DNA of 64,000 nt. Source: Allosphingosinicella sp. (GTDB lineage Bacteria; Pseudomonadota; Alphaproteobacteria; Sphingomonadales; Sphingomonadaceae). Shown here piece after piece: positions 34,846-50,624 of the stretch. Each line of letters begins with the position of its first letter. Positions within the stretch are counted from its first letter, which is position 1. The position numbers and the translations under genes are program-made. The notes under the pieces are model-generated. The model saw only the letters and a program-made list of their open reading frames with translations, ran no database searches and had not been told where the DNA came from. The DNA lies in the NCBI GenBank assembly GCA_035719905.1, contig DASTFN010000044.1:4711-68710 (forward strand), read 5' to 3'.

Positions 34846-35067
34846 TTACTGATTGGGCTGCTGATGCTGGCTCATGTCGTGGCCGGCATGCTCGCCGCTA
34901 CCGGGCTTGCCTTTGCCGTGCTCGTCGCAGCAGTCCATCTTCATGCCCATCTTCTCGCAGCAGCACTTCTTCTTCGCCTGCGTGGGGGCTGGCGTAGGCG
35001 CCGTCTGGGCGTGGGCGACACCGGGAATCGCGATCGCAAGCGCGAGCGCAGCAAACATCATCTTCAT
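34846..35067 (-). CDS. Secreted Cys/His-rich microprotein (paralog of 27943-28146)
   Basis: MKMMFAALALAIAIPGVAHA..KCCCEK..DCCDEH..EHAGHDMSQHQQ. Confidence 0.75.
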   Translation of the reverse strand: MKMMFAALALAIAIPGVAHAQTAPTPAPTQAKKKCCCEKMGMKMDCCDEHGKGKPGSGEHAGHDMSQHQQPNQ

Positions 35068-35098
35068 CGAATCTACTCCTGAAAAATCGAGAAAAGTC

Positions 35099-35566
35099 TC
35101 AGATCTTCAGGAGGCCTCGGGGAGGGGGAGTTGCGGCCTCGGGCACGAGGCCGTGCGGCACCGAAACCAGGGTCGCCACCCGTTGCGGGCCATGGTCGAG
35201 AAGCTGCGGCCCGAGCTGGCCGCCGACGGCCGGAATCGCCGGGACGGCGGCGCAAGCCTTGACGCAGTCGCGGGAATCGGAACCGCAAGGCTGATCCTTC
35301 GACTTGCCGTCCATATCCTGGCAGGCGGCCCTGGAGGCGTCGCCGGCCATGTCGTGGCTCATCATCTGATGGTCAGCCGTCTGCGAGGCGGAGGCGGTCA
35401 TCCCTGCGTGGTGCGCCGCGGCCGAGGCCGGCGCAACGCCGATCGCCGCGAGCGGCGACATGGCCAGCGCGAGGATGGCCAGGAACCGGATGAGGCGCGT
35501 CAGCAGCACGGGGCGCAAATAGGCCGCCGGTCCGCCGGTTGCAATGGTCCGAAACCGGATGTTCAT
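35099..35566 (-). CDS. CopL-like Cys/His/Met periplasmic protein
   Basis: Signal/TM segment, AHHAGM..HQMMSHDM, C..C..C..C; start overlaps the cueR stop. Confidence 0.55.
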   Translation of the reverse strand: MNIRFRTIATGGPAAYLRPVLLTRLIRFLAILALAMSPLAAIGVAPASAAAHHAGMTASASQTADHQMMSHDMAGDASRAACQDMDGKSKDQPCGSDSRDCVKACAAVPAIPAVGGQLGPQLLDHGPQRVATLVSVPHGLVPEAATPPPRGLLKI

Positions 35567-35958
35567 GACGCTTTCCCTTCGAGGCCGCCCAGGATCGGGC
35601 AGTCGGGGCGCTCGTCACCATGGCAATTGGCGGCAAGGTGCTCGAGCGAGCGCCGCATGGCGTCGAGCTCCTTCGCCTTGCGCTTCAGCTCGGCCGCCCG
35701 AGCCAGCGCCAGGGCCTTCACGTCGGCGCTGGCCCGTCCGCGGTCCTGCCACAGTTCGAGGAGCTTGCCGATTTCCTCGATCGGGAAACCCAGATCCCGG
35801 GCCCGCCGAATGAAACGAAGCGTATGGATGTCGCGCTCATCATAGTCCCGGTAGCCCGAGTCCCGCCTCGCCGCCTTGCCGATCAGCCCGATCGACTCGT
35901 AGTGGCGGATCATCCGCTGGCTGACGCCGCTTTCGGTCGAGGCCTGCCCGATCTTCAT
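35563..35958 (-). CDS. cueR: Cu(I)-responsive MerR-family regulator
   Basis: [24 protein letters not shown]-terminal CHGDERPDC. Confidence 0.92.
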
Positions 35959-38312
35959 AGCCGCACTCCCCTCAGCCGGAGCGAGTTGCCGATTACCGCG
36001 ACCGAGCTCAAGGCCATCGCCGCGCCGGCTATCATCGGGCTGAGCAGCAGGCCGAAGAGCGGGTAGAAGACCCCGGCCGCGATTGGCACGCCCGCCCCGT
36101 TGAACACGAACGAGAAGAACAGGTTCTGGCGAATGTTGCGCATCACCGCCCGGCTGAGGCGCCTTGCGCGGACGATTCCGCCGAGATCACCCTTCACAAG
36201 CGTCACCGCCGCGCTCTCCATGGCGACGTCAGTCCCGGTCCCCATAGCGATGCCAACATCGGCGGCCGCAAGCGCGGGAGCGTCGTTGATGCCGTCCCCG
36301 GCCATGGCAACCCGCCGGCCTGAGGCCTTCAGACGCTCGACCACCGCTTGCTTCTGATCCGGGAGGACGTCGGCGATGACCTCGTCGATGCCGCCGACCT
36401 GGCGCGCCACCGCCTCAGCGGTTCGCCGATTGTCCCCGGTGAGCATCACCACCCGGACACCGTCCCGGCGCAGTTCGGCAATCGCCTCAGCCGCGCTCTC
36501 CTTGATCGGGTCGGCGACTGCGATGAGCCCCGCCAGCTTGCCGTCGACGGCGACGAACATCACGCCCTGACCCTCGGAGCGAAGCTCGTCAGCCTGACCC
36601 ATCAGGGGGGAGGGGTCTATGCCGAGATCGGCCAGCAGGACCTTATTGCCCAGCGCCACCGGCCGGCCCTCGACCGAGCCGCTGACGCCTTTGCCCGTAT
36701 GCGAAGCGAAGTCGGTGGTTCCAGCCAAAGCGAGGCCGCGCTCCTCGGCCCCTTCGACGATCGCGGCAGCCAGCGGATGCTCGCTGCCGCGCTCCAGCGA
36801 GGCTGCAAGGCGCAGCAGATCGGCCTCGTCGACACCGGCCGCCGGGATGACCGCCGTGAGCTTGGGCTTGCCCAGCGTCAGGGTGCCGGTCTTGTCGACG
36901 ACCAGAGTATCGATCCGCTCCATCAGTTCGAGCGCCTGGGCGTTCTTTACCAGCACGCCGGCCGTGGCGCCGCGGCCGGTCCCGACCATGATCGACATCG
37001 GCGTGGCAAGGCCAAGCGCACAGGGGCAGGCGATGATCAGCACCGCCACCGCGTTGACGATGGCGAAGCTCATTGCCGGCTCCGGTCCGAAGATCGCCCA
37101 GACCCCGAAGGAAATGATTGCGATGAGGATGACCGCGGGCACGAACCAGGCGGACACCTTGTCGGCGAGCGCCTGGATCGGGGCGCGAGAGCGCTGCGCC
37201 TCGGCGACCATCCGGACGATCTGGGAGAGCATCGTGTCCTGACCGACCCGCTCGGCCCGCATCAGCAGGCTGCCGGTGCCGTTGACGGTGGCACCCGTCA
37301 CCTTCTCTCCCGGCACTTTTTCCACCGGAACCGGCTCGCCGCTGATCATCGACTCATCCACTGACGAACGGCCCTCGACGACCACGCCGTCGACCGGCAC
37401 CTTTTCGCCCGGCCGCACCCGAAGCAGATCGCCGGCATGGACGTGACCGAGGTCGATATCCTCCTCGCGCCCGTCGTCGCGGACGATCCTCGCCGTCTTC
37501 GGCGCCAGCCCGAGCAGCGCCCGGATCGCCTTGCCGGTGGCCGAGCGGGCGCGCAACTCCAGCACCTGCCCAAGCAGAACCAGGGTCGTAATCACCGCCG
37601 CGGCCTCGAAATAGACAGGCACCACGCCGCCCATCGTACGGAAGGAGGGCGGGAACAGGTTTGGAGCCAGGGTCGCGACGAGGCTGTAGGAATATGCCAC
37701 GCCGACGCCGAGGCTGATCAGAGTGAACATGTTGAGGTTGCGGCTCTTCAGCGACGCCCAGCCCCGCTCGAAGAACGGCCAGCCGCCCCAGAGCACGACC
37801 GGCGTTGCGAGCGCGAGCTGCACCCACACCGAGGTCCTCATGGGCAACCAGTGCCAGCCCAACAGCTCCGAGCCCATTGCCAGAACGAACAGCGGCAGCG
37901 ACAGGGCCGCGCTCACCCAGAAGCGGCGGCTCATGTCGATCAGCTCGGGATTCGGGCCCTCGTCGAGGGTTGGCATCTCCGGCTCGAGCGCCATGCCGCA
38001 GATCGGACAGCTGCCAGGGCCAATCTGGCGGATCTCCGGATGCATCGGACAGGTCCAGATCGCGCCCTCAGGCACGTCCTCCGCCCCGGCCGCCTCGGCT
38101 TTCGGATGTAGATAGCGATGCGGATCGGCGATGAACTTGGTCCGGCAGCCCGCGCTGCAGAAATGATAGGTCGCGCCGTCGAGCTCGTGATGATGCGCCG
38201 TCGCCGCCGGATCGACCGTCATCCCGCAGACCGGATCCTTCACCGTGGCCGCCTCCGGCTGGGCGGTATGATCGTGATGGCAATGTCCGGCATGGTGATT
38301 CTGGGCGTCCAC
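35955..38312 (-). CDS. P1B-type copper-translocating ATPase with YHS domain
   Basis: [41 protein letters not shown]. Probable GTG start at 38312 with GAGGAGG RBS. Confidence 0.96.
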
Positions 38313-38370
38313 AGCTCGATCCTCCTCGACGAAGCCGCCGATTCGGCTCCCGTGGACCCTCACATGGTGT

Positions 38371-38455: not shown

Positions 38456-39349
38456 CTACCCCAGCCTCTTACGGCAGACCCGCTCCACGCGCCGCTGAAG
38501 CTCCGTAACCCGCTCCGTCAGCCAAGTGATCTCGTTTCGGGAGATCCTGTAGTGCGGCGAGTAACGGGCGTTTACATAGGCCTGTCGCAGCAGTTCGAAG
38601 GCCCGCCGCTCGAATTTTCCTTCCCTGGGCCAGGCCTCGATCAACTCCGGAGCTATCTGTTCAGCCTGGGACCGCAGGAAGTTCAGCTTGTGCGACTTGG
38701 GGCTGTAGAGGGTCAGAACGAGCAGGACGCAGTGATACAGCCGCTCTGCCGTCTGATGGAGGTCGAAGGCAGCCTCCTTCCAATATTCCTTGCCGGCGGC
38801 CGTGCGGGCCAGATCGAAACGGCGCTCGGCGCTTGGATACCACTCGTTGAAATAGGCCTCCGCTTCGACCCTCGCCTGTTCCTCCGGCAGCTTTCTCGGC
38901 GTGGTGAAGGCGAAGCCCTGAGCCTCGTAGAGGACCGCCCCGTGCTCCACGATGTCCACGAAGAAGGGGCGGCCCCGCTCGAGCTGGCTGTTCACGTCGG
39001 AAAGCGAATGGACGATAAAGTTGACGGGCGCGCTGAGGCTCCCGGCAATCGATGTCTCGCGCATCAGCCTGTCGTCGGCGACCGACCAGAAGTCGATCAC
39101 GTCCGTCAGACGATCGTCGCTGACGACGACGAGGATATCGTAGTCCGATCTGTAGCCACCGACCGGATCATCCACCCAGTCTCCTCGGGCATAGGAGCCG
39201 TAGAGCACCACCTTGAGGATGCGTCCGCCCTTTTTCCATTGCTGGCTCGCCCGCGCCGTGACCGACTCGAACTCCTCAAAGAGAATCCGAACCACCGAGG
39301 CGAGCTCTCGCTGCTTGCCGTCCGGCAGATGATCCAGGCTCGTTTTCAT
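38456..39349 (-). CDS. Fused minimal nucleotidyltransferase-HEPN protein
   Basis: Start MKTSLDHLP at 39349; LYGSYARGD..SDYDILVV; HEPN-like AAFDLHQ.AE..HKL..YVNARY. Confidence 0.88.
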   Translation of the reverse strand: MKTSLDHLPDGKQRELASVVRILFEEFESVTARASQQWKKGGRILKVVLYGSYARGDWVDDPVGGYRSDYDILVVVSDDRLTDVIDFWSVADDRLMRETSIAGSLSAPVNFIVHSLSDVNSQLERGRPFFVDIVEHGAVLYEAQGFAFTTPRKLPEEQARVEAEAYFNEWYPSAERRFDLARTAAGKEYWKEAAFDLHQTAERLYHCVLLVLTLYSPKSHKLNFLRSQAEQIAPELIEAWPREGKFERRAFELLRQAYVNARYSPHYRISRNEITWLTERVTELQRRVERVCRKRLG

Positions 39350-39876
39350 CCCGCCCCATGTCGTCGCGCCGGCGCGGAATGCCAAGCGCATTTCATCGCT
39401 GTGCGTCCGCCGCGGCTCGCGTGAGCGGCCGTCCCGACGGCTCCCGCCCGTCGATTGAAAAGAGTCACAGTCTTTTCCCTCGAACATCCCCATAAATCTT
39501 TTCGGTCCGGATCGGACCTTCCTGCGAGCGTTCCGAATGCTCAACCCGTTGAACATCCATGGAGTCCGCTCGGCGCACCCTCCCTTGCTGCCAGCACCGT
39601 CCGTCCCAATCGGGTTCCCAATTCAGGAATCCAATGCAATACGCGGATTGATCGGCTCGAGCAGAGATGCAAACACTCGCAGGACGTCGACAGCACGACT
39701 CGCACGGAGCACCCAAGGTGGAAGTGCACACACCGCCACTTGAACATCTCCACGCAGCACCGACGTAGTCGTCACAACAATCGCATACCCAACCGTCGCC
39801 GCTTCACTGCGGAGGCGGCTTTACAAGCAGGATCGGAATAAGTAGCGTGGTGGACGACGCACGGCAGGGGGCAAGC

Positions 39877-40500
39877 ATGGCGAGTACTGTGGACGCATCG
39901 TCCGATGCGGTATCTCGCGACTCCCGTGCAGCCCAGTTCCACTCCTTCCATCGATTTCAAAGCCAGCAGTCCGATTGGGTACCCTTCGAACCAACGAAGC
40001 CCAGCGGCATGTCGACGCCCCAGATCGAAACTTTGGCCGAAGGCCTCGCATCCGAGCTGAACTATGTTCCGGGTACGGACATCCGCGAACTCGTCGTTCG
40101 TATAGGCGGCAAACTCTTGTCGACACCGGTACTCGGCGTGTCGGATGGCACTGACGGCACCCTGCTGCTTCGCCCGGACTCAACAAATTTCGTGATAGTT
40201 CTTCCAGTCAGAGCGAGCTCGCGCCAGGATCAACTGGCAGTAGCCAAATTACTGGGGCACTATTTTTTGCATTATCGGTTTTTCCAAATCGAAACCGAGG
40301 GCAAGGCCAGTCGTCCAACGCCGGCGCGAGCACAGCGCGAAGCGCTGCTATTCGCACTTGCGTTCCTTATGCCAGCAGAGGCATTTTCTCGCGCCTATGA
40401 ACTGGCACACGGGAAGATGGACGTGGTAGCAGCGTCTTTCGGCGTGCCGTTCGAAGCGGCGGAACTGCGTCACCGGAGGCTCCAGATCCGAGCCAAGTAA
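39877..40500 (+). CDS. ImmA/IrrE (DUF955)-like protein with degenerate HExxH
   Basis: AKLLGHYFLH where AHELGH is expected; EALLFALAFLMP where EANxFAAxxLMP is expected. Confidence 0.7.
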   Translation: MASTVDASSDAVSRDSRAAQFHSFHRFQSQQSDWVPFEPTKPSGMSTPQIETLAEGLASELNYVPGTDIRELVVRIGGKLLSTPVLGVSDGTDGTLLLRPDSTNFVIVLPVRASSRQDQLAVAKLLGHYFLHYRFFQIETEGKASRPTPARAQREALLFALAFLMPAEAFSRAYELAHGKMDVVAASFGVPFEAAELRHRRLQIRAK

Positions 40501-40518
40501 ACCGCCATCGGGGGGCTA

Positions 40519-41718
40519 GTGGCGCAACTTCCAGACCATATTCCCGAGATTCTGAAACCGCGCCTGCGCCTCTTCATGAGCGTGGATGTCGTCGGCTCGA
40601 CGAAGCTGAAGCAGCCCGAGTTTCTCAGCAAGCAGATCGATTGGCTCGACATTCTGCAGCGGTTCTACGGTGAGACTGTCGAGGCCGTGCAGACTGAATG
40701 GCTCGCCCTGCGAGCGCTTTTCCCGGATCCTGCCACCCACCCGGACTTCCTTGGCGATCCGCCGCAATTCTGGAAAACGGTCGGCGACGAGGTCCTCTAC
40801 TACAAGGACCTCACCGACAGCCGGCAGCTGGCCCTCGCCCTCGAATGCTGGAAGAAAGCGCTGACGCGGGTCAGGACCTTCCTCTACAAACAGAACGAGG
40901 GCGCGCTCAAAGACGCGGTTCCGGAGGTTAAGCTCGACGTCAAATCGGCCGTATGGACTGCCGGCTTCCCCTGGCGGAACAAGACGATCGTGAGCCCGTC
41001 CGGATTGCTCAACGAGCTGTGCAAGGGTGACTACGCCGAGGTGTTCCAGAACGCCCACGAGAAGGCTCACCGCGAACCAGCGCCAGGAGACGGAACGGGC
41101 GCGCGGGTCGAATTCGATTTCATCGGCCCAGGCATCGACATCGGGTTTCGCCTCTGCGGATTTGCGACGGTGCAAAAAATGGTGCTGAGCATGGATGCCG
41201 CCTACATCCTAGCGGCAGTTCGCGGCGCCAACGCCTTCCTTCTACCGGAACCTCTATATTATGACGGGCGCATTCCCCTCAAAGGCGTCTTCGCCGGCCG
41301 GGAATATCCGCTTTTTTGGATCGACAACTCCCATCCCGACTCCTTCGAAGCCAAGGAGTCGCGCGCTCGGCATCCCATCAGCGACACCGATGTCCTCAGA
41401 TTCTGCGAGACGTTTTACAAGGAATTCTACAACCTCTTCACGCACCGCCCCTTTATCGTCGGCGACCATGGCGGCCTCACCGCGATACCCGACGATTTCG
41501 ACCGCTGGATGGGTGTCCAGGTTGCCCAGTACGAAGAGCGCCGGAAAGAAGGCGAGCGCCGCCAGCAGGCCGAGCAGGAACTGACGAGAGCCGGCGCTTC
41601 GCGCGGAGGCGGCGCACGGCAGCCGGCCGCAATCGACGTCAACGAACTCAAACAGAGACTCACTCGGGATATCGCACCCCAGGCCGAGGACGAGCCTGAG
41701 GCTCCCAAAAAAACCTAG
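40519..41718 (+). CDS. Class III nucleotidyl cyclase-like protein
   Basis: LFMSVDVVGST, WKTVGDEV, DFIGPGIDIGFRL match the D-xx-GST / GD / GxxV(N/D)xAxR layout. Confidence 0.65.
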   Translation: MAQLPDHIPEILKPRLRLFMSVDVVGSTKLKQPEFLSKQIDWLDILQRFYGETVEAVQTEWLALRALFPDPATHPDFLGDPPQFWKTVGDEVLYYKDLTDSRQLALALECWKKALTRVRTFLYKQNEGALKDAVPEVKLDVKSAVWTAGFPWRNKTIVSPSGLLNELCKGDYAEVFQNAHEKAHREPAPGDGTGARVEFDFIGPGIDIGFRLCGFATVQKMVLSMDAAYILAAVRGANAFLLPEPLYYDGRIPLKGVFAGREYPLFWIDNSHPDSFEAKESRARHPISDTDVLRFCETFYKEFYNLFTHRPFIVGDHGGLTAIPDDFDRWMGVQVAQYEERRKEGERRQQAEQELTRAGASRGGGARQPAAIDVNELKQRLTRDIAPQAEDEPEAPKKT

Positions 41719-41758
41719 CGCATTTCCGATGCCGCATCTCCAGCCCTGGCAGGCCGCG

Positions 41759-42838
41759 CTACCGTTCCAAGGCTCCGCGGAACGCGTCGGGGAAAACATC
41801 GATCGCATCAAGCACCGCCGAAAGGGCCAGCGCCGGGCGTTCAGCGAGCTCTTCGACCGATAACGGCGGGATCATCGACAAGAGATGGAGCGCCCTGGGA
41901 TCGTCTGGGACCGGCTCGCCAGCGGCCTGCCCTACCACCCACGGCAAGAGCGCGAACAACGCCAGCTCGTGAGCACGCCTGTAGAAGCAGGCTTCGCGCA
42001 CATCAGGGTGATCGATGCTGCGAGCGAACTCATCGACGGTCCAGGCAGTCGGATGGCGCTCCCGCCAGGCTTTCACCCAGGCATCCTCGCGAGGAAAGCC
42101 TGATGTCGCGAAGTGAAGCGCCGGCTCCTCGATAATCCTCCTCCTGGACGACTCCGCCTGCGCTGGGTTCACCCGGATCTTCACCGCTCCGTAGCGCAGC
42201 CTCGCCCGCAGGAACAGACGAGTGGTCTCGGCGTGAACGGTACCGCCCAAGCGATCCTGCTCTCGAAAATGTCCACCCCAGCGGACATAGTCGGAAAGCA
42301 AGTAGCCGCACGCTTTGTCGTCGACGATTACCTCCTCATTGTCGCCGACGCCGGCGGCCTCCATCGCATCGACGATCGACCTTTCGAGCGCCCGATATTC
42401 GGGATGAGCCGCATCGAACTCTGCAGATCGGCGAATCGCTCCCTCGAGCAGGAAGCCCCGACGGCCGGCCAGCGCTTCCCACATACGCTGCGAATACCCG
42501 GGCAAGTAAAGCGTGTCGGCGTCCGCCTGAAGGATCAAGAGTTCCTCAGGCGCAATGCCAAGGTCGGCTGCTAGATCGGCCGCCGCGAAAGCGCCCCGTC
42601 GCCTCGGCGGAACGAACCCGCGCTCAGGCTCGACGAGGATCCGGACGGATCCCGGGCGGGACGCGGAGGCGATCCGTTCCATAACCGCCGGCGTCCGGTC
42701 GGTTGAACCGTTGTCGATAAGGAACAGGAATACATCATCAGCCGCCGCAACACCGCTTACGCCAAAGCCGAGCGATGAGGCTGCAGCTTCGATGTATCCT
42801 TCCTCGTTGAGGCAGGGGATGACGATGGCGACTGCCAT
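41759..42838 (-). CDS. GT2 / GT-A glycosyltransferase, last gene of the RiPP operon
   Basis: AIVIPCLNEE, LIDNGSTDRT, LQADAD; starts 1 bp after the upstream stop. Confidence 0.88.
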   Translation of the reverse strand: MAVAIVIPCLNEEGYIEAAASSLGFGVSGVAAADDVFLFLIDNGSTDRTPAVMERIASASRPGSVRILVEPERGFVPPRRRGAFAAADLAADLGIAPEELLILQADADTLYLPGYSQRMWEALAGRRGFLLEGAIRRSAEFDAAHPEYRALERSIVDAMEAAGVGDNEEVIVDDKACGYLLSDYVRWGGHFREQDRLGGTVHAETTRLFLRARLRYGAVKIRVNPAQAESSRRRIIEEPALHFATSGFPREDAWVKAWRERHPTAWTVDEFARSIDHPDVREACFYRRAHELALFALLPWVVGQAAGEPVPDDPRALHLLSMIPPLSVEELAERPALALSAVLDAIDVFPDAFRGALER

Positions 42839-42839
42839 C

Positions 42840-43418
42840 TCAAGGTCGAGCCGGACGAACGGCCACCGTTCTCCTCGCCGCCCGCCGACTCGCGCCTCCG
42901 CCGTTGGGTTTTTGCGGCAACAAGGCCCGAGCCATCCGCAACGACGCTGCGCATCGCGGCGAGCAGGGCACATGGCTGATCCTCGTGCGTCCCTCATTAT
43001 AGCCGCTCGGGTCGATCATCCTAAAAAGGCCGACAAAGCGCCGCGATGCGATCGTCTGTCCCCAATCGTCTAGCCCTTCATCATTGCGACGCCCGGCTGC
43101 AATGCAACAACACGCCGGATACCCTAGGGCCAGGCCCAGGGCGATGGTATGCCTCCCGGCCCTGGCGTCGATGCGCAAGACCCGCCGGGCTGAGCCGGCG
43201 ATGGGAGCGATGGAGAAAAACCCGTCTTTGTCTACAGCCGCGAAGAGCCCTTGCCGACGGGCCCACCGGCGAACCTCATGGCGATCCGCCCGATACACCA
43301 GCTGACTTCGCATTACCGGCCTGACCGACCCTCGAAGCTGAGCGAGATCGACTTCCGCCGAAGCGCGCATCCAACGCGGCCTGGCGCTCGATCCGGTCAA
43401 GACCGTTTCCTCGTCCAC
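42840..43418 (-). CDS. Cys-rich DUF483-like hypothetical protein
   Basis: LGLALGYPACC and SHVPCSPRC..S motifs; overlaps the GNAT stop. Confidence 0.6.
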   Translation of the reverse strand: MDEETVLTGSSARPRWMRASAEVDLAQLRGSVRPVMRSQLVYRADRHEVRRWARRQGLFAAVDKDGFFSIAPIAGSARRVLRIDARAGRHTIALGLALGYPACCCIAAGRRNDEGLDDWGQTIASRRFVGLFRMIDPSGYNEGRTRISHVPCSPRCAASLRMARALLPQKPNGGGASRRAARRTVAVRPARP

Positions 43419-43867
43419 TTCATGATCAGCTGATTGGTCGGCAAACCGGCGTCGACATAGCCGGCTTCCTCGGCGGCGCGGCGGGAAGCCACATTGATCT
43501 TCCGCATGTGGGCGTAGACGACATCATACTGGCTCGCCTCGCTTGCGAGCCGATAAGCTATACGACCAACGCCTCGGCCTTGGGAGGACTGGTTCAGATA
43601 GATTTGAATCGAGGCGTGCTTTCCGACCGGCGCCTCATCGATCCAATTGATGTAAATCACTCCTGCCCGCTTGCCGGCCGCGCGGATCACCCAGGCATGA
43701 CCGCCGGGACCGCCGCCCTTTCCGGGCGTCCCCTTGGTAGGAACCAACTCCACCTCGGCCGCAGTGACCTTGGCTAGGTCGGGTCTGGGTTTCGATGCCT
43801 TCGGCTTGGGTGTCGGCCGCGTCGGCGACCTCGGCCGCGAAGGCGGTTTGCGCTTGGAATCAGGCAT
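43397..43867 (-). CDS. GNAT-family N-acetyltransferase
   Basis: SQGRGVG (Q/RxxGxG), N.ASRRAAE.AGY; ATG at 43867 overlaps the upstream stop. Confidence 0.85.
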   Translation of the reverse strand: MPDSKRKPPSRPRSPTRPTPKPKASKPRPDLAKVTAAEVELVPTKGTPGKGGGPGGHAWVIRAAGKRAGVIYINWIDEAPVGKHASIQIYLNQSSQGRGVGRIAYRLASEASQYDVVYAHMRKINVASRRAAEEAGYVDAGLPTNQLIMKWTRKRS

Positions 43868-44855
43868 AGAGCTCCTCCAGCCCCGCCTGCAGACGCCGGT
43901 CGGACTCGTCCCACAGCTCGGCCGGGAAAAACCCCGGCGAAAAGGCGATGACAGCGTCCTCAATCCTCGGCACCAGCTGCGCGTTCCTTAGAACGGAGGT
44001 CAGCCGATCCACCTGCCGAAGGACGTCATCCGCTCCCGGGTCGAGCACTTCCGGGCGCTCGCGCCAATCCCCGTCACCATCATATCGGTTGTTGAAATAA
44101 TCCATGTCGACGTGGAGCAGGACGGGCCCAGGCCCGATATTCTCAACCCACCGGTCGAGATCGTCAGTGATCCGATATTTGCCTGGGCCAGTGCCGGCGC
44201 TCGCCTTCACGAGCTTCACCGCCGGCCGTGACGCGCCAGGCTCGAGAAGATCGTCGGGTTCGTGGCCAAGTTCAATCGTGTAGTCCGTCGTCTCGCGTAT
44301 CTTCGGCGCCTGACCGAGCTGCCGCACATCCGCCTGTGGAAAGCGATGCAGGAAGGGCGTCAGGAAGCTGCCCATACCCACGGCCCCGCTTTCCAGCGCG
44401 GAGCGAACACTGCCTGGTGATGCCACGTCGAAAACCTCACCGCTGATCGGGTCGACCAACTCGCCGTCGCGCGTGAACAACCGGGGCGATGCAAGGTCGC
44501 GATGATCGTCAACATGGAGAATTGTCAGCGGATCGCGCGGAGAGCTGCCTGATCGTGCAACCCACTCGCTCCAGCTGTGCAGCGTCCAAGTATCGTACAG
44601 CGCCCGAAGCACTCGGCCCGTACGTCGCCTTGCTAGTGCCATCTCGCCGCGGCCGATACCACCCCACGACCCGAGGCCGGTGTCCAGCGCCGGATCGACA
44701 TGGCGATCCTCGCCGTCAGGCCAGCCAAGCCTCAGTTCCCAATGATCGCCGTGCCGAACGGCCGTGGCGTCCTTGTCGCAGAAGTAGTCCCTGAGGGCGC
44801 CGTGGCGAGCGGCCTCGTTCTCCGGCAGCCGCTCCAGGGGCACATTCAGCGACAT
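43860..44855 (-). CDS. Arginase/ureohydrolase-fold (UPF0489-like) metalloenzyme
   Basis: LHVDDHRDL (HxDxHxD), LHVDMDYF (DxD), SPGFFP; TGATG-coupled to the radical SAM gene. Confidence 0.72.
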   Translation of the reverse strand: MSLNVPLERLPENEAARHGALRDYFCDKDATAVRHGDHWELRLGWPDGEDRHVDPALDTGLGSWGGIGRGEMALARRRTGRVLRALYDTWTLHSWSEWVARSGSSPRDPLTILHVDDHRDLASPRLFTRDGELVDPISGEVFDVASPGSVRSALESGAVGMGSFLTPFLHRFPQADVRQLGQAPKIRETTDYTIELGHEPDDLLEPGASRPAVKLVKASAGTGPGKYRITDDLDRWVENIGPGPVLLHVDMDYFNNRYDGDGDWRERPEVLDPGADDVLRQVDRLTSVLRNAQLVPRIEDAVIAFSPGFFPAELWDESDRRLQAGLEELYA

Positions 44856-46990
44856 CAGGCAGCCAGCGACTGGTGCGTCGCCTGACCCTCCAGCACTCCG
44901 GCCAAAGCCCGGCCAACCTCGGTGAGTGGACATCCCCGCAGGGTGGCGAACGCCTCCTCCAGGTTGCGATCGGTGTCGGCAAGCTGATTGAGGGCACGCA
45001 TCCTCAGACGCTCCGGCCCGCGATCCCGAACATGCTCCCAGAATCGCCGCAGCTCGATGAACACGAACACCGCATGTAGGACCCCGGACGCCGGGCGAAG
45101 ATCCTCCCGCCATGGAGACACTACAAGGCCTCCCGGCTCCGTCATCGGGAAACGCCGCTCGAGTAGGTAGAGCTTTTGATGGCGATGCTCATGGATGAGC
45201 GAGTCGGCGAGATCGTAGGGATCGATGATCCGATCGCCCTGAACGACGGATACGAACAAGGCGCCGGGCACCGAGTTGTCGCTGAAGGAGACAATCTTCT
45301 CCGGGTGCGCCGACGGGTCGCGAACAAACTGAACGGCTCGACAGATTCGGCCTATCTCTTCCCTGAGGGCTGGCCGCCATTCCCCGATGATATCGAGAGC
45401 CTCGCTCACCACCGGTGCGGCCGATGCCGCGACCTCCGGCCCCTCAAAGGCAATGGATGCGCCGAACGGTGCGCGCAGCCAGGGATCGTCAATGCCGACC
45501 GACAATCCGTTTGTCGCTATCGGCCGACTTAGCACCTGCTCGAGATACGACACATTGGGGCTAAGCGGCGCCCCGTCGACGTCGTAGACCGTGCGGCCCT
45601 CACGCTGAGCTATAAATGCCCTCTGCCACGCCGTCAGGCCGGGATTGCCAGCCAGGATCAATTTCTCTTCAGAGCTGAGGCCATCAATGAGTTCGTGCAG
45701 CCGCTGATCGCCGAGACCGGCTCCGACGACTTCGCTCAATGCCTTGTCGAGGTCCGCGGCATTCTCTTGGCAAGTTTCGTCCCATAGCTCCGCGACGATA
45801 GGCGCCGCGCGCTCGGCAAGCTCGTAGGCCGCCAGATCGACATCGAGCTCACGCGGCGCAGGAGCGGCCGGACCAGCCAGCCCGCCCTCCAGCCGTCGTC
45901 GGACGTGGGCGACAAGGCTTTGCATCTCGCCGCAGTAGACGGTGGGATTGGCAAAGCCATCGGCACCGAAGCGATGGGGCACGGAACCGCCGCCGCAAAT
46001 GTCGACGATCCCGCAGGCCTGGCAAACCGGGCTTAAGCCCTCTTTCGACAGCAAGCGGCGATGGGCTTCGATCGCGTCTGAGGAAGCGACGACAGAAATT
46101 GGAGTATCGCGAACCGAACCCGCAAGACGCGTCGCTCCGTCCCCCACCACCTTCAGTACGTCGAGGTCATGATAGGTGCCGTCAGTCTCAATGGTGATCA
46201 GGCTGACGTCGCCCAGACCGAACGCATCGGTTCCAGATGAAAGCCCCATGATCGCGTCGAGCAGGGATTCAAAAGTCCGCACTCGCAGCTCAGGATATTG
46301 GTCGAACCATATATCAAACGCTTCGATCAGCCATCTCTCGTAGCGGCCGGGGTCAAGATCCCGGCCGGGTGGCGGCTGATTGTGGTGCGAGTCCGGAAGC
46401 AGGAAATCGAGCTTGGGAGGTGCGTGGCCGGAAAAATATTCAAAGAGCGTCGCCGGCGGCACGCTCGCATCGATTACCGAGATAACGCCCGCGAAAGTAT
46501 TGGGCCTGGCCTTCAACCGCTCCAGGGCCGCCTCGACTTTATCGAAGCTCGATCGCCCACGCCGCGTGGTCCTGTGGAGATCGTTCACCTGCCGAGGCCC
46601 ATCGAGGCTCAACGAGACCGAAATCCGCTCCGCCTCCAAGGCGTCGAGGACTTCGTCCGTGAGGAGCAGCCCATTGGTTTGCATGCCGACTTCAAGCTCG
46701 ACATCAGGGCCCACGGCCGAGCGTAAGTCACGCGCGAACTCGACGATGTGATCACTGCCGGCGAGCAGCGGCTCCCCGCCGTGGAAAATCACCGCAGCGC
46801 GCTTCAGGCCGACTTCAGACGCGTATTCCGCAAGCCGGTTCGCAAAAGCCGCGCGGTCGTCAGCGGAAAGATGGCGTGGCATCGACCGCCAGGCCTGGTC
46901 CGCATGATGATAGACGTAGCAATAATCGCAATCGAGGTTGCACCTCGATGCGACCTTGACGAGGAACGACGTAATCCTCGCCGCTGTCAT
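44855..46990 (-). CDS. yhhB: Radical SAM/SPASM peptide maturase fused to HExxH domain (FxsB/YhhB-type cyclophane synthase)
   Basis: KVASRCNLDCDYC, IFHGGEPLL, SPASM CQAC...CGGG..HR..YC, C-terminal LIHEHRHQKL; 10 bp downstream of the precursor. Confidence 0.88.
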   Translation of the reverse strand: MTAARITSFLVKVASRCNLDCDYCYVYHHADQAWRSMPRHLSADDRAAFANRLAEYASEVGLKRAAVIFHGGEPLLAGSDHIVEFARDLRSAVGPDVELEVGMQTNGLLLTDEVLDALEAERISVSLSLDGPRQVNDLHRTTRRGRSSFDKVEAALERLKARPNTFAGVISVIDASVPPATLFEYFSGHAPPKLDFLLPDSHHNQPPPGRDLDPGRYERWLIEAFDIWFDQYPELRVRTFESLLDAIMGLSSGTDAFGLGDVSLITIETDGTYHDLDVLKVVGDGATRLAGSVRDTPISVVASSDAIEAHRRLLSKEGLSPVCQACGIVDICGGGSVPHRFGADGFANPTVYCGEMQSLVAHVRRRLEGGLAGPAAPAPRELDVDLAAYELAERAAPIVAELWDETCQENAADLDKALSEVVGAGLGDQRLHELIDGLSSEEKLILAGNPGLTAWQRAFIAQREGRTVYDVDGAPLSPNVSYLEQVLSRPIATNGLSVGIDDPWLRAPFGASIAFEGPEVAASAAPVVSEALDIIGEWRPALREEIGRICRAVQFVRDPSAHPEKIVSFSDNSVPGALFVSVVQGDRIIDPYDLADSLIHEHRHQKLYLLERRFPMTEPGGLVVSPWREDLRPASGVLHAVFVFIELRRFWEHVRDRGPERLRMRALNQLADTDRNLEEAFATLRGCPLTEVGRALAGVLEGQATHQSLAA

Positions 46991-47000
46991 GAAACCGCTC

Positions 47001-47174
47001 CTACGAGCGGCTGTGACGGTGATGCATCCGGTCGTAGCTGGTGATCACCTCGCTCGCCTCAGCTTCGGCCAGCACACGCTGCTGAAGCCGCTGGAGCGCA
47101 GGATTGGCAGGGCGCGCGCCGAGAACGGCAGAGCGGAGAGAGGCAGACGACTTGGAAGCCAATGCGGCGGACAT
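47001..47174 (-). CDS. yhhA: RiPP precursor peptide, 57 aa (YhhA-type triceptide precursor); absent from ORF track
   Basis: Manual translation MSAALASKSSASLRSAVLGARPANPALQRLQQRVLAEAEASEVITSYDRMHHRHSRS*; strong RBS AAAAGGAG; directly upstream of the radical SAM gene. Confidence 0.88.
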   Translation of the reverse strand: MSAALASKSSASLRSAVLGARPANPALQRLQQRVLAEAEASEVITSYDRMHHRHSRS

Positions 47175-47358
47175 GCTTCGTTCTCCTTTTCGAGACCCAA
47201 CCGTAGCCGTTCGCCCCGGTCACTTCAACAGGACCAGCCGACTTTTTACGTGAATTTCGGATATTCTGGATCGTGGGCGCGCCGGCTGAAACCGTCCTTG
47301 CACCACAGCGCCCGTTCAGCCTAGCCTGACCGCCTTCGCGCCCGCGAGTCTCAACGAA

Positions 47359-49056
47359 ATGTCTTCTCCCCTCGAAGCTTATCGAATCTTTATCGCTTCA
47401 CCGAGCGGACTAAAGGCCGTGCGAGAGCGCTTTCGAGCCACAATAGACAAGTACAATGAGACCGATGCCAACCGGCGCGGCGTGATGTTCATGGCGGTAG
47501 GGTGGGAAGCCACCCTTCCCGGAATCGGGCGGCCGCAGAAGATCATCAACGACGATCTCCATGGCTGCGATTACTTCGTCCTTGTCCTCCATGATCGGTG
47601 GGGGACTCCCGCCTCCAACGAACCTGATGCGGAAACGGGATCGGAGGAGGAATTCCGCATCGCGCTCGAGTTGCAGCAAGACAGCGACAAAGCGATGCGG
47701 GACGTGGTCGTCTTCTTCGTCAGCGTCGACCCGGGAAAAATGAGCGACCCAGGCCCGCAGCTCCAGAAGGTGCTCGATTTCAGGAAAAAGATCGAGGCTG
47801 ACAAGAAGCTCCTCTACCGCCAGGTCGAGAATGCGGACGACTTTGCCGACGCCTTGCGCGCCCATCTCGCCCGTTGGCTTCATAACCACGAGCAGGGCAA
47901 GGCCGGCGGGAACGGCGCCGAGGCCGAAGTCCCAGCCGAATCCGAAACCATTGCCCTCGCGCCGGAACCGGCTGAGGTTGGAGCGCCGGGCCCGGACGAT
48001 CAGGGAACGGCGTCGCCGGCGGCACCCAACAGCGGCGACGACCTCGTCGCGAGAGCGAACCAGCTGATCGCCGAATCTAAACCCACCGAGGCCGAAAGCC
48101 TGCTCGCCACGGCTGCCGAAAAGAGGAACAATCCCGCCCACTTGCTGGCCTACGCCGAGCTCTTGGCCCGCCTCAGTCGTCCCCGAGCAGCCGTGACGGA
48201 GTACGAAGCGACCGCGGACTTGGCCCAGGACGCGGGCGAAGCCGAAATCGCACTGCGCGCCCTCTTGGCTCTGGCCTATCTGCAGGATGATCTCGGCCGC
48301 GGCGATAAGGCGGAAGAGGCGGCCGCAAGAGCCATCGAGATTAGCCTCGCCACAGACGAGCTCCCGGGCGCCGCGCGAGCTCGGATCCTGCTTGGCGAGC
48401 GGCGACGGCGAGCGGCCCGATTCGCGGAGGCCGAGGAGGAGTATCGCCAGAGCATCGATCTCGCCGCTCACGGAGGCGACCCCCTGGCCGAGGCTGACGC
48501 ACGGATCGGCCTCAGCGAGGTTTTTCGCGATCAGGAAAGGCTCGATGAGGCGCGCGAGTCCCTCTGCAAAGGCATCGCCTTGAAACAGCAGGGCGGAGTC
48601 ACGGATCTCGGGGACGCTTATGCTGCGCTTGGCGCTATCCTCGAGACGATGGGCGACGAGGACGGCGCCGAAAAGCACTACGGAATGAGCCTCGAGCTTT
48701 TCAAACAGAAGGGCGACCGGTCCGGACGGGCAGATGCGGCCGATCACCTCGGCCAGGTCCGGCTTAGACGAGGCGACCTTGAAGGTGCCGAAGACGCCTT
48801 CCGCGACAGCGCCTCACTCTTCGAGGGAATGTTCAACTTCGAAGGCGCTGCCGACGCCTATCTCAGCCTGGGCCGGATTCAGACCGAGAGAGGCGATTTA
48901 GGAGCTGCGGAGGAATCGTTCCGCTCAGCACTCTCCCTGGCCGAACGCAAAAAAGACCCGGCGGCACGCTCGCTTCGCGAGGATATCCTCAACTATCTGG
49001 AGAGCATTATCGCGCGCGCCGGCGCCGTGGTGGATCAGCCCCCTCCGGCCGGTTGA
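47359..49056 (+). CDS. DUF4062-domain plus TPR-repeat protein
   Basis: RIFIASPS..ER..GWE..QK.IN..L..CD.FV..L..RWGT..EEEF..A; C-terminal helical TPR-like repeats. Confidence 0.8.
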   Translation: MSSPLEAYRIFIASPSGLKAVRERFRATIDKYNETDANRRGVMFMAVGWEATLPGIGRPQKIINDDLHGCDYFVLVLHDRWGTPASNEPDAETGSEEEFRIALELQQDSDKAMRDVVVFFVSVDPGKMSDPGPQLQKVLDFRKKIEADKKLLYRQVENADDFADALRAHLARWLHNHEQGKAGGNGAEAEVPAESETIALAPEPAEVGAPGPDDQGTASPAAPNSGDDLVARANQLIAESKPTEAESLLATAAEKRNNPAHLLAYAELLARLSRPRAAVTEYEATADLAQDAGEAEIALRALLALAYLQDDLGRGDKAEEAAARAIEISLATDELPGAARARILLGERRRRAARFAEAEEEYRQSIDLAAHGGDPLAEADARIGLSEVFRDQERLDEARESLCKGIALKQQGGVTDLGDAYAALGAILETMGDEDGAEKHYGMSLELFKQKGDRSGRADAADHLGQVRLRRGDLEGAEDAFRDSASLFEGMFNFEGAADAYLSLGRIQTERGDLGAAEESFRSALSLAERKKDPAARSLREDILNYLESIIARAGAVVDQPPPAG

Positions 49057-49064
49057 CCCGAGAC

Positions 49065-50624
49065 TTAGAATTTCCAGCGGTCTTCCCAGGTGGAAAGCGT
49101 CATCTCACCCACCAGGCCGGGGCTGGCCTTTTGTCCGCGCCGGCGTTCTTCCTGCTCAACCGCCAAAGACAGGTAGATCAGCGCGGCTCGGGCCTTCTTC
49201 ATCACGAGCATCGCCTTTTCCGCGAAGTCGTCTCGCGACAAAGAAATCCGCAAGCCGTCGGAGGACAGCTCGAGCTTGTGCGCATGCTCGGCCCGCCATG
49301 CCCATCCCTCGTGAAGCTGAAGATATTTGTGTTCGAGGTGGTTGCGAAGGTCCGCCAAGTCCCTCGCCTCGGGTTCGAGGGCTTGGCGTGCCTGCTCCTC
49401 GAAGATGTCCTTGGAGAGCCAGAACAAGCCTCGCAGCGGCCAGTTCTGCAGCAGGGAAAATTGCGTAAGGAGCGGCTTGGGAGGCTTCCCCTTCACCTCA
49501 TACCAAACGCTCCTGAAGCTGACCTGCGTCGGCTTGTGGCCGACGCTCCAGTAGGAGTTGATGAAGTAGGCGATCTTATCGAACAGCGAGTAGGCCGCCC
49601 GATAGCCAAGCCGCAGCAGCTCCGTCGCCCGGCTGAGCGAGGGATAATCGAACGTGTTGTACTGGAGGACCCAGCGATCCGAGAAGTGCGGCTTATCGGC
49701 CTGAAGGCCCTCGAAGAGGGCGTATCGCGCCGACACATATTCCTGCTTCAGCTGATTGAAGAAGCCGATCACCACCGGCATCCCAGGATCGGATGTGCTG
49801 ATCGAGGGGAGGGTCAGCACATCGTGCGCCGCGATCGGAGCCTGCACCACGTCGTTGAGCGGGTTTAGAAACAATCGGTTGGCGAGACACCATGACCGGT
49901 AATCCCGCTCGAGACGGCTCCGTCCGAGGCTGCCCCGCTCAGGCTTAAAGTCGCTGCGGATCTCGTCGAGTGGAAAATAGCCGGCGATCTCCTCCCGGTG
50001 CCTGGTGAAATAGGCATCGGCATCCTCGACCGCGGCGCTATCGATGACTGCGCCCTCCTCCGCCGACCGCGCCAGGCTGTCATGGGCCTCCAGTGCGAAG
50101 ATCCCGACATGTCCTGAATCGTACAGAGATCGCGCATAATGGGAGAGGCCGACGCCGCGGTTTCCGAGCGCCATGGCGAACGTCGGAATGATCCGCAGCG
50201 CCCGGTCCCAGACCTCAAGCGCCTCAATGAACCTGCCGATCGTATCGAGGCATCCGGCGAGATTGGTCAGAATCTGACATTGGCGAACAGGGTCTAGTTT
50301 CGGAAACTCATCATGATTGACTGCCTTTCTCAATGCCAGGATCTGAGCTTCGAGACAGGCGTCCTCCCAGGCCCAAGGGTCTGGCTGGGCGATCGCGCGC
50401 CGGGCTGCCAGCAAGTTTGCCTGGAAATAATGGACCAATATTTCGTCGGCGGCCGCGAGGGTACGAGTTCCTAGCTCGGTGAGGACCTGCTCAGCTCGAT
50501 CGAGGCCCGCCGCAATACCGCCTTCATGCGATAAATCGATCAATGTCGCGGCGGCCGACAAGGCCTGATCTGTCGGCAGACGCTCGATGGGTGCATCGAT
50601 CAGGCGTTTTAGAAATGCATCCAC
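49065..50624 (-). CDS. TPR plus LA2681-type HEPN protein (putative RNase toxin)
   Basis: N-terminal TPR (LTNLAG..GRF.EA..WDRAL), NRLFLNPLND, LRGLFWLSKD, RNHLEH (Rx4H). Confidence 0.8.
   Translation of the reverse strand: MDAFLKRLIDAPIERLPTDQALSAAATLIDLSHEGGIAAGLDRAEQVLTELGTRTLAAADEILVHYFQANLLAARRAIAQPDPWAWEDACLEAQILALRKAVNHDEFPKLDPVRQCQILTNLAGCLDTIGRFIEALEVWDRALRIIPTFAMALGNRGVGLSHYARSLYDSGHVGIFALEAHDSLARSAEEGAVIDSAAVEDADAYFTRHREEIAGYFPLDEIRSDFKPERGSLGRSRLERDYRSWCLANRLFLNPLNDVVQAPIAAHDVLTLPSISTSDPGMPVVIGFFNQLKQEYVSARYALFEGLQADKPHFSDRWVLQYNTFDYPSLSRATELLRLGYRAAYSLFDKIAYFINSYWSVGHKPTQVSFRSVWYEVKGKPPKPLLTQFSLLQNWPLRGLFWLSKDIFEEQARQALEPEARDLADLRNHLEHKYLQLHEGWAWRAEHAHKLELSSDGLRISLSRDDFAEKAMLVMKKARAALIYLSLAVEQEERRRGQKASPGLVGEMTLSTWEDRWKF

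What the first reader, a model, noticed from the sequence alone, without database searches (positions are those of the whole stretch)
41759..47174. Six-gene triceptide-type RiPP operon with an unusual tailoring set
Seen: precursor, radical SAM/SPASM-HExxH fusion, arginase-fold enzyme, GNAT, Cys-rich DUF483-like protein and GT2, all on the minus strand with overlaps or gaps of 10 bp or less. Known: FxsB/YhhB-type radical SAM enzymes form three-residue cyclophanes, and HExxH domains of this class act as alpha-KG-dependent beta-hydroxylases. Inference: the product could be a tri-cyclophane peptide that is further hydroxylated, de-guanidinated, acylated and glycosylated. I do not know of a characterised triceptide cluster with this combination, but cannot check novelty here.
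Basis: partly seen in the sequence, partly recalled or inferred. Interest (0 to 1): 0.85.

Follow-up and report, generated by a model that had tools for sequence, protein, structure and literature searches.

The report
Conserved six-gene YhhA cyclophane-peptide operon
This is a real six-gene operon of the already known YhhA/YhhB (ChlA/ChlB) family of ring-stapled ribosomal peptides. Its four "extra" enzyme genes are the family's regular but still uncharacterised companions, not an unusual addition.

Summary
Six minus-strand genes (47174-41759) are packed with a 10-nt gap, a 1-nt gap and three overlaps. The precursor and the fused radical SAM/SPASM-HExxH enzyme pass NCBIfam's curated cut-offs for YhhA and YhhB. 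They match the crystallised ChlB and ChlH of Chlorogloeopsis, so the core is a known system.

The four downstream genes are not an unusual add-on.
- In 80 genome loci from six phyla, the arginase-fold gene and the GNAT follow yhhAB almost always.
- In 80 metagenome loci fetched with the arginase-fold protein, yhhB lies upstream in 58 of 58 and a GNAT downstream in 68 of 68.
- The DUF483-like gene and the GT2 are optional modules. All six genes occur in 29 of 76 loci.
- The published chl locus itself carries the first three accessory genes.

The arginase-fold protein is closest in fold to the peptide arginase OspR and keeps five of its six metal ligands. About 10% of its family is fused to the GNAT. 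An Arg-to-Orn-to-acyl-Orn relay is therefore plausible but unproven.

The core SYDRMHHRH[S/N]RS is nearly invariant, and no exporter or protease is conserved. An earlier follow-up in this scan called the yhhA/yhhB pair known on other DNA.

The parts
47001..47174 (-). yhhA precursor peptide, 57 aa. The leader carries a conserved NPALQRLQxRV stretch. The core is ITSYDRMHHRHSRS, with three ring motifs: YDR (47-49), HHR (51-53) and HSR (54-56).
   Evidence: NF041705 scores 64.1 bits against a cut-off of 36. The RBS AAGGAG lies 8 nt upstream. The same core is found in 103 of 120 loci.
44855..46990 (-). Fused maturase, 711 aa. Residues 1-~370 are a radical SAM/SPASM cyclophane synthase (C17xxxC21xxC24, SPASM CQACGIVDIC at 323). 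Residues ~384-706 are an alpha-KG-HExxH beta-hydroxylase domain (H600-E-H-R-H604).
   Evidence: TIGR04269, NF041707 and TIGR04267 are all above their cut-offs. PDB matches: ChlB rSAM domain 9gm3, E 3.8e-134, and ChlH 8s5f, E 6.1e-76. Motifs were read.
43860..44855 (-). g3, 331 aa: an arginase/ureohydrolase-fold protein distantly related to PF12640 (UPF0489) peptide arginases. Motifs are H114-V-D-D-H118-R-D120 and H248-V-D250-M-D252-Y-F. The first peptide-arginase motif is replaced by LYD88TW90.
   Evidence: The AF2 model has pLDDT 95.8. Foldseek's top hit is OspR 8brp, E 4e-10, TM 0.52-0.57. The family profile matches 8brp at E 1.5e-7. 33 of 39 homologues weakly match PF12640. Invariant residues are listed.
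43397..43867 (-). g4, 156 aa: a small GNAT acyltransferase with a basic, Pro-rich N-terminal stretch of about 35 aa. That stretch corresponds to the linker in g3-GNAT fusion proteins.
   Evidence: PF13302 scores 30.6 against 25.4 and PF00583 scores 27 against 20.7. g3-GNAT fusions occur in L034, L064, L078 and L079, and in 15 of 150 family representatives.
42840..43418 (-). g5, 192 aa: a DUF483-like Cys/His protein. Motifs are LGYPAC103C104 and SH149VPC152SPRC156, with H90 invariant. Function unknown. Optional module.
   Evidence: Alignment A2 gives the invariant residues. 21 of 28 homologues weakly match PF04467. The AF2 model has pLDDT 89 but no PDB fold match at E<=0.001. It is present in 45 of 76 evaluable loci.
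41759..42838 (-). g6, 359 aa: a GT-A fold family-2 glycosyltransferase (D106-A-D108) with a family-specific C-terminal half. Optional module.
   Evidence: PF00535 is above its cut-off. It is present in 47 of 76 evaluable loci. Three distant homologues (35-39% identity) all lie in yhh-type clusters.

Best explanation
The six genes are one operon of the YhhA/YhhB (ChlA/ChlB-ChlH) triceptide family, together with that family's own accessory module.

Steps known from characterised homologues:
1. The 57-aa YhhA is bound through its leader.
2. The rSAM/SPASM domain forms three three-residue cyclophanes: Tyr47-C3 to Arg49-C-beta, His51-C2 to Arg53-C-beta and His54-C2 to Arg56-C-beta.
3. The fused Fe(II)/alpha-KG HExxH domain beta-hydroxylates ring residues (Asp48 and a His).

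Steps inferred here:
4. The arginase-fold protein g3, a divergent relative of the peptide arginases, hydrolyses the guanidino group of one or more of the three invariant ring Arg residues. This gives Orn and releases urea.
5. The GNAT, always adjacent and sometimes fused to g3, acylates the freed delta-amine.
6. Where present, the GT2 glycosylates a hydroxyl: Ser/Thr of ITS, the C-terminal Ser, or a newly made beta-OH.
7. The DUF483-like Cys/His metalloprotein acts as a further accessory of unknown chemistry.

No dedicated exporter or protease is part of the conserved unit.
For: Family membership:
- NF041705, NF041707, TIGR04269 and TIGR04267 are all above their curated cut-offs.
- PDB ChlB matches at E 3.8e-134 and ChlH at E 6.1e-76.
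- Published chemistry: YhhB links Tyr-C3 and His-C2 to Arg-C-beta (PMC11002830). YhhC/ChlH hydroxylate Asp and His on the cyclophane scaffold (PMC12186529; PMC12636437).

One functional unit:
- The genes are translationally coupled.
- yhhA + yhhB + g3 + GNAT occur in essentially all of 80 genome loci from six phyla.
- In the reverse test, 58/58 loci have yhhB upstream of g3 and 68/68 have a GNAT downstream.
- Clustering of flanking ORFs finds only these six families conserved.
- The GT2 and DUF483-like subfamilies were found only in yhh-type clusters.

Arginase and GNAT relay:
- OspR is the top fold hit, and the family profile matches it at E 1.5e-7.
- The counterparts of OspR ligands D39, H41, D43, D165 and D167 are invariant in g3: D116, H118, D120, D250 and D252.
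- The core holds three invariant Arg residues.
- g3-GNAT fusions make up 15 of 150 family representatives. One g3-ATP-grasp fusion also exists.
- There is a direct precedent. In the selidamides a PF12640 arginase makes Orn, which a GNAT then acylates (PMC8784127).
Against: - g3 is only 17% identical to OspR.
- g3 scores below PF12640's cut-off (13.9 against 27 bits) and far below NF052474 (16.5 against 350).
- The motif EEH(N/H)EAF, which holds Mn ligand His12, is replaced by LxD88xW90 with no conserved His. Metal stoichiometry and chemistry may therefore differ.
- The target Arg residues would be beta-cross-linked inside strained rings, a substrate no known peptide arginase has been shown to accept.
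- The acyl donor, the sugar, the acceptor sites and the order of steps are all unknown.
- The key papers on this family (Sugiyama 2022, Morishita 2024, Ruel 2025) were not held. I could not check whether they already assign these genes.
Confidence: 0.6

Rival explanations
1. g3 is not an arginase. It is another arginase/deacetylase-fold amidohydrolase, for example a mono-metal deacylase. With the GNAT it would form an acylation/deacylation (protect/deprotect or self-resistance) pair, or it would hydrolyse some other amide on the peptide.
For: - The His12-bearing first motif of the peptide arginases is missing, and no conserved His replaces it.
- g3 fails the PF12640 and NF052474 cut-offs.
- The fold is shared with HDAC-type deacylases, which appear among the weak Foldseek hits.
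- From my own knowledge, not tested here: the HDAC zinc site corresponds to the arginase Mn-B site.
Against: - OspR beats every deacetylase by many orders of magnitude in Foldseek (4e-10 against >=0.02).
- All five other binuclear-site ligands, including the Mn-A ligand equivalent D120, are invariant.
- Fusing two opposing activities into one polypeptide, as in 15 of 150 representatives, would make a futile cycle.
- The three Arg residues are invariant in the core.
Confidence: 0.25
2. The biological role is not a secreted antibiotic. The product would be an intracellular or cell-associated factor: a His/Orn-rich metal-binding or cofactor-like peptide, or a component of inter-genomic conflict carried on mobile islands.
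For: - The core is nearly invariant across six phyla, 103 of 120 loci being SYDRMHHRH[S/N]RS, while the enzymes diverge to 41-60% identity.
- No conserved exporter or protease was found.
- The distribution is sporadic: 1 of 401 sampled genomes of the class.
- The cluster occurs on conjugative plasmids.
- It lies next to defence genes in several lineages: HEPN and PDC-S60-like genes here, Septu and Ietat components, SIR2-TPR, pAgo-SMEK and AbiEi.
Against: - None of the six proteins matches a PADLOC model beyond generic rSAM similarity.
- The neighbours are heterogeneous: 122 Pfam families among 131 flanking proteins.
- Island co-location is expected for any mobile cargo.
- Exporters and proteases of RiPPs are often encoded elsewhere.
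Confidence: 0.15
3. The four downstream genes are unrelated neighbours that merely abut the yhhAB pair.
For: None beyond the absence of any published assignment in the papers I could read.
Against: - Co-occurrence holds in both directions.
- g3 and the GNAT are found fused.
- The GT2 and DUF483-like genes belong to dedicated subfamilies.
- The genes are translationally coupled.
Confidence: 0.02

Closest known systems
ChlA / ChlB-ChlH of Chlorogloeopsis sp. (cyanobacterium PCC 7702). Structures: 9gm3/9gmc (rSAM domain) and 8s5f (alpha-KG-HExxH domain).
   Same: The fused rSAM/SPASM + HExxH architecture is the same, at about 47% identity. The core SYDRMHHRHNRS differs from SYDRMHHRHSRS here by one residue. 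The chl locus (L055) carries g3, GNAT and DUF483-like homologues in the same order.
   Different: The chl locus has no GT2. The accessory proteins are only 32-48% identical to those in the window.
YhhA/YhhB/YhhC (Sugiyama et al. 2022, JACS; NCBIfam NF041705 and NF041707).
   Same: The precursor and rSAM enzyme pass the equivalog cut-offs. The chemistry is Tyr-C3/His-C2 to Arg-C-beta cyclophanes plus erythro-beta-OH-Asp.
   Different: In the characterised yhh system the hydroxylase is handled as a separate protein, YhhC. Here it is fused to the rSAM enzyme.
Selidamide pathways (KspR/KspN, PhaR/PhaN; PMC8784127) and landornamide OspR (PMC10028609).
   Same: A PF12640-type arginase-fold enzyme paired with a GNAT in a RiPP cluster. 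There, Arg is converted to Orn and the Orn is then N-delta-acylated. g3 shares the OspR fold and the DxHxD and DxDYF motifs.
   Different: Those pathways belong to a different RiPP class (proteusin/Nif11 lanthipeptides). g3 lacks the EEH(N/H)EAF motif and carries an extra N-terminal region of about 85 aa. The putative substrate Arg residues are cross-linked ring residues.
Minviopeptin (mic cluster, PMC12912966).
   Same: A triceptide with three cyclophanes that is tailored after cyclisation.
   Different: Its tailoring enzymes are an ADP-ribosyltransferase and a classical alpha-KG oxygenase that cleaves the peptide. Its rSAM enzyme is PasB-like, and its core differs.
GT2 peptide glycosyltransferases of glycocins (SunS/ThuS type). 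This comparison rests on my own knowledge and was not tested here.
   Same: GT-A fold, family-2 enzymes encoded in RiPP clusters.
   Different: No detectable specific similarity. The best PDB sequence hits of g6 are GpgS-type enzymes at E about 0.03.

Membership tests
YhhA/YhhB (ChlA/ChlB) triceptide system | The precursor matches the YhhA equivalog model. | tested here: met
   NF041705 scores 64.1 bits against a cut-off of 36.
YhhA/YhhB (ChlA/ChlB) triceptide system | The rSAM/SPASM maturase matches the YhhB/FxsB models and has CxxxCxxC plus SPASM cysteines. | tested here: met
   NF041707 scores 487.7 against 445 and TIGR04269 scores 510.4 against 370. C17/C21/C24 and CQACGIVDIC were read. 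ChlB 9gm3 matches at E 3.8e-134.
YhhA/YhhB (ChlA/ChlB) triceptide system | The core holds three aromatic-X-Arg motifs (Tyr, His, His). | tested here: met
   YDR at 47-49, HHR at 51-53 and HSR at 54-56.
YhhA/YhhB (ChlA/ChlB) triceptide system | The alpha-KG-HExxH hydroxylase is present. | tested here: met
   TIGR04267 scores 142.8 against 40. HEHRH lies at 600-604. ChlH 8s5f matches at E 6.1e-76.
YhhA/YhhB (ChlA/ChlB) triceptide system | Cyclophane formation and beta-hydroxylation actually occur on this peptide. | not testable with these tools
   Needs co-expression with MS/NMR.
Peptide arginases (PF12640; NF052474 FlmR/OhkR) | Scores above the curated family cut-offs. | tested here: not met
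   PF12640 scores 13.9 against 27 bits. NF052474 scores 16.5 against 350.
Peptide arginases (PF12640; NF052474 FlmR/OhkR) | Arginase alpha-beta-alpha fold, closest to OspR. | tested here: met
   Foldseek against 8brp gives E 4e-10, probability 1.0 and TM 0.52-0.57.
Peptide arginases (PF12640; NF052474 FlmR/OhkR) | Central DxHxD motif and the LDIDLDYF-type motif (five of the six Mn ligands). | tested here: met
   D116/H118/D120 and D250/D252 are invariant in 39 sequences. They align to OspR. The ligand list comes from PMC10028609.
Peptide arginases (PF12640; NF052474 FlmR/OhkR) | N-terminal EEH(N/H)EAF motif, with Mn-A ligand His12 and Glu11. | tested here: not met
   The corresponding stretch is LYD88TW90TL. 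Only D88 and W90 are invariant, and no His is conserved there. The residue mapping is by spacing and the Pfam alignment, not by superposition.
Peptide arginases (PF12640; NF052474 FlmR/OhkR) | Converts peptidyl-Arg to Orn with release of urea. | not testable with these tools
   Needs an enzyme assay.
GNAT acyltransferases | Pfam GNAT models above the gathering score. | tested here: met
   PF13302 scores 30.6 against 25.4 and PF00583 scores 27 against 20.7.
DUF483 (PF04467) | Pfam model above the gathering score. | tested here: not met
   The window protein has no hit at E<=1. 21 of 28 homologues match weakly, best E 3.5e-6. Some database homologues carry a precomputed PF04467 annotation.
Glycosyltransferase family 2 | Pfam PF00535 above the gathering score, and a DxD motif. 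| tested here: met
   PF00535 scores 34.7 against 23.3. DAD lies at 106-108.

The most novel reading that the evidence does not exclude
The near-invariant tri-cyclophane core is a conserved functional molecule, such as a metal-binding, cofactor-like or conflict-related peptide, rather than a variable antibiotic. It is spread by horizontal transfer on islands and plasmids. Its universal g3-GNAT pair performs new chemistry: a divergent UPF0489 hydrolase, with an altered Mn-A site, de-guanidinates beta-cross-linked Arg inside strained rings, and the product is then N-delta-acylated.
Probability: 0.3. Interest if true: 0.7.

Novelty: new member of a known kind. Interest (0 to 1): 0.4.

Why it matters
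The rSAM and HExxH steps of this family have been solved structurally. In the literature I could reach, however, no mature natural product, biological role or accessory enzyme has been described.

This work adds three things:
- The arginase-fold/GNAT pair is an obligate part of the pathway, and is sometimes a single fused polypeptide.
- The GT2 and DUF483-like genes are dedicated optional modules.
- The core peptide is almost invariant across six phyla.

Together these define a clear, testable route to the real end product. They also point to possibly new peptide-arginase chemistry on cross-linked arginine. For this window on its own, the finding is an ordinary member of that family.

Tried and rejected
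- The papers by Sugiyama 2022, Morishita 2024 and Ruel 2025 are not held. I could not check whether the accessory genes are already named or tested there.
- Searches of the held literature for arginase + cyclophane + rSAM gave nothing on this family.
- The promoter and terminator scan found nothing above the shuffles. The stretch after the GT2 does not fold better than shuffled sequence, z = 1.02.
- Rfam gave no match in 41000-48000.
- PADLOC gave no model for g3-g6.
- A Foldseek search of the DUF483-like model found no match at E<=0.001, and a PDB sequence search found none.
- A search of 401 genomes of the same class with the g3 profile found only the window's own genome. This shows rarity but gave no comparators.
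- The idea that the DUF4062-TPR neighbour is a pathway member (weak HaaT-like score) was rejected. It recurs in only 6 of 80 loci, four of them Allosphingosinicella loci, and it looks like a PDC-S60-type defence candidate.
- N-terminal extensions of some g3 representatives gave no Pfam domain, apart from one ATP-grasp and one GNAT.
- A residue-level superposition of g3 on OspR could not be done, because model coordinates are not exposed.

Full report
**Anatomy**

Six minus-strand ORFs fill 47174-41759.
- yhhA, 47174-47001, 57 aa, with AAGGAG 8 nt before its ATG.
- A 711-aa fused maturase, 46990-44855.
- g3, 44855-43860, 331 aa.
- g4, 43867-43397, 156 aa.
- g5, 43418-42840, 192 aa.
- g6, 42838-41759, 359 aa.

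The junctions are a 10-nt gap, TGATG (1-nt overlap), ATGCCTGA (8-nt overlap), a 22-nt overlap (4 nt if an in-frame TTG is used) and a 1-nt gap. G+C is 0.60-0.65 across the operon, against 0.68 a few kb upstream. No consensus promoter, terminator or Rfam element was found.

**The core pair is a known system**

- The peptide passes NCBIfam's YhhA equivalog (64.1 bits, cut-off 36).
- The enzyme passes YhhB (487.7/445), FxsB (510/370) and the alpha-KG-HExxH hydroxylase domain model (142.8/40).
- It matches the crystallised ChlB rSAM domain (9gm3, E 3.8e-134) and ChlH (8s5f, E 6.1e-76).
- It has CNLDCDYC at residue 17, SPASM cysteines at 323 and HEHRH at 600.
- The core ITSYDRMHHRHSRS holds YDR, HHR and HSR.

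Papers I could read state the chemistry of the homologues. YhhB links Tyr-C3 and His-C2 to Arg-C-beta (PMC11002830; PMC11499958). YhhC/ChlH beta-hydroxylate Asp and His on the pre-formed cyclophane scaffold (PMC12186529; PMC12636437). RefSeq already annotates yhhA and yhhB by name in related plasmids. An earlier follow-up of this scan reached the same verdict on other DNA.

**The four downstream genes belong to the pathway**

*Forward test.* A scan of 185,579 species genomes with YhhB gave 171 relatives. The best 80 loci come from Alpha-, Beta- and Gammaproteobacteria, Acidobacteriota, Cyanobacteria, Planctomycetota, Actinomycetota and Bacteroidota.
- g3 follows yhhB in 79 of these loci and is cut off by the contig end in the remaining one.
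- The GNAT was found in 76 of 80.
- Of 76 evaluable loci, 29 have both g5 and g6, 16 have g5 only, 18 have g6 only and 13 have neither.
- Clustering all flanking ORFs found no other conserved family, and in particular no transporter or protease.

*Reverse test.* Eighty metagenome loci were fetched with the g3 profile, at 33-68% identity.
- All 58 with room upstream carry yhhB.
- All 68 with room downstream carry the GNAT.

*Dedicated subfamilies.*
- The g5 subfamily is small, with 121 database proteins. Several of their longest-contig lengths coincide with contigs of the yhh-type loci fetched earlier, for example L007, L024 and L123.
- Three distant GT2 homologues (35-39% identity) all lie next to an rSAM gene of about 700 aa and a g3-sized gene.

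*The published locus.* Locus L055 encodes the very proteins crystallised as ChlB and ChlH (839 and 756 bits). It carries g3, GNAT and g5 homologues directly downstream.

The 'unusual tailoring set' is therefore the family's normal accompaniment. The six-gene version is one of four recurrent architectures.

**What the accessory proteins are**

*g3.*
- It has no Pfam hit above threshold. Even so, 33 of 39 family members weakly match PF12640/UPF0489, the peptide-arginase family (PMC12703449).
- Its AF2 model (pLDDT 95.8) has the peptide arginase OspR as its only strong Foldseek hit (E 4e-10). Other ureohydrolases follow at E >= 0.02.
- The family profile hits OspR at E 1.5e-7. HVDDHRD aligns with HVDEHSD, and HVDMDYF with LDIDIDYF.
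- OspR's Mn ligands are H12, D39, H41, D43, D165 and D167 (PMC10028609). The g3 counterparts of the last five, D116, H118, D120, D250 and D252, are invariant.
- The first peptide-arginase motif, EEH(N/H)EAF, is replaced by LxD88xW90, with no conserved His.
- g3 is therefore a divergent relative. By the curated criteria it is not a member of the peptide-arginase family.

*g3 and the GNAT.*
- The g3 family comprises 486 50%-identity clusters among 1.84 billion representative proteins.
- Of the best 150, 15 are g3-GNAT fusions, and four fusions occur among the genome loci.
- One representative carries an ATP-grasp domain.
- The window's GNAT begins with a basic, Pro-rich stretch that corresponds to the fusion linker.
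- The selidamide pathways give a direct precedent. There a PF12640 arginase makes Orn, and a GNAT acylates it only afterwards (PMC8784127).

*g5 and g6.*
- g5 has invariant H90, C103, C104, C152 and C156, and a nearly invariant H149. It resembles DUF483 weakly, gives a confident model, and has no fold match in the PDB.
- g6 is a GT-A family-2 glycosyltransferase with a DAD motif.

**Most likely mechanism**

Steps 1-3 rest on characterised homologues: leader-guided formation of three cyclophanes, followed by beta-hydroxylation.

Steps 4-5 are inferred: Arg to Orn by g3, then N-delta-acylation by the GNAT. The inference rests on fold, ligands, invariant Arg residues, obligate adjacency, fusions and the precedent. 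I put it at roughly even odds.

The main rival is a different amidohydrolase activity of g3, given the altered first motif.

Glycosylation by the GT2 is a reasonable guess with no site evidence. The role of g5 is open.

**Other features**

- The core is SYDRMHHRH[S/N]RS in 103 of 120 loci, while YhhB falls to 41-60% identity.
- The g3 profile found a match in only 1 of 401 sampled genomes of the class, the window's own.
- The cluster occurs on conjugative plasmids.
- It often lies beside mobile or defence genes, but the neighbours are otherwise heterogeneous.
- This fits a horizontally spread module with a conserved target or function. It does not show what that function is.

**Limits**

The primary papers on this family were not held. 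I could not superpose the g3 model on OspR.

**Verdict**

The window holds a new member of a known kind. The open and interesting part is the uncharacterised but conserved arginase-fold/GNAT (± DUF483-like, ± GT2) module.

Noticed in passing
window 47359-49056 (+): A DUF4062 + TPR protein is transcribed divergently from yhhA. It matches the PADLOC candidate PDC-S60 (E 3e-19). Homologues lie beside the yhh cluster in L002, L004, L016, L022 and L054 only, so it is probably an island neighbour and not a pathway member.
   Followed up: partly
window 38456-41718 and 49065-50624: Conflict-type genes flank the operon: a nucleotidyltransferase-HEPN fusion (38456-39556), a CapP/ImmA-like protein (39847-40500) followed by a 399-aa protein with no Pfam, NCBIfam or PADLOC match (40519-41718), and an LA2681-like HEPN protein (PF18733, E 5e-72).
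   Followed up: partly
window 20210-38363 and 62238-63353: Upstream of the operon lie metal- and efflux-type genes: an AcrB-type RND pump (20210-23461), a multicopper oxidase (32922-34763) and an 802-aa ORF (35955-38363) whose sequence looks like a copper P-type ATPase (not scanned against any family library). A TniB-type ATPase lies at 62238-63353 and gyrB at 1889-5488. The whole stretch looks like cargo of a Tn7/Tn5053-like element, as other first-reader notes suggest.
   Followed up: no
L167 (Novosphingobium pentaromativorans plasmid pLA4), L166 (Rhizobium etli plasmid pRetMIM1e): The same cluster sits on conjugative plasmids. In pLA4 it lies directly beside a Piwi-domain (pAgo) gene and a SMEK-domain gene, with a DNA methylase nearby. 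RefSeq names yhhA and yhhB but calls the arginase-fold gene 'hypothetical protein'.
   Followed up: partly
flanks of L001-L080 (alignment A3): Among 131 immediately flanking proteins, three match Septu PtuA, three match PtuB and three match Ietat IetA. ArdC-N, rve integrases and a SIR2-TPR protein also occur. This suggests island and defence neighbourhoods, but related genomes are not independent and no baseline was computed.
   Followed up: partly
L040, L042, L043, L046, L080; L050, L052, L073, L129: Gammaproteobacterial versions lack g5 and g6. Instead they carry a second GNAT-like gene (L040, L042, L046) or an elongated GNAT ORF of about 400 aa (L043, L080). A small 2OG-Fe(II) oxygenase lies in or near the cluster in four loci.
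   Followed up: partly
P0277 (representative library, 978 aa): One g3 homologue is fused to an ATP-grasp (RimK-like) domain. This would fit ligation onto an amine freed by g3.
   Followed up: no
L162, L163: Gene order varies. In a Bacteroidia contig the GNAT precedes g3. In a Planctomycetales contig no GNAT was called between g3 and the GT2.
   Followed up: no
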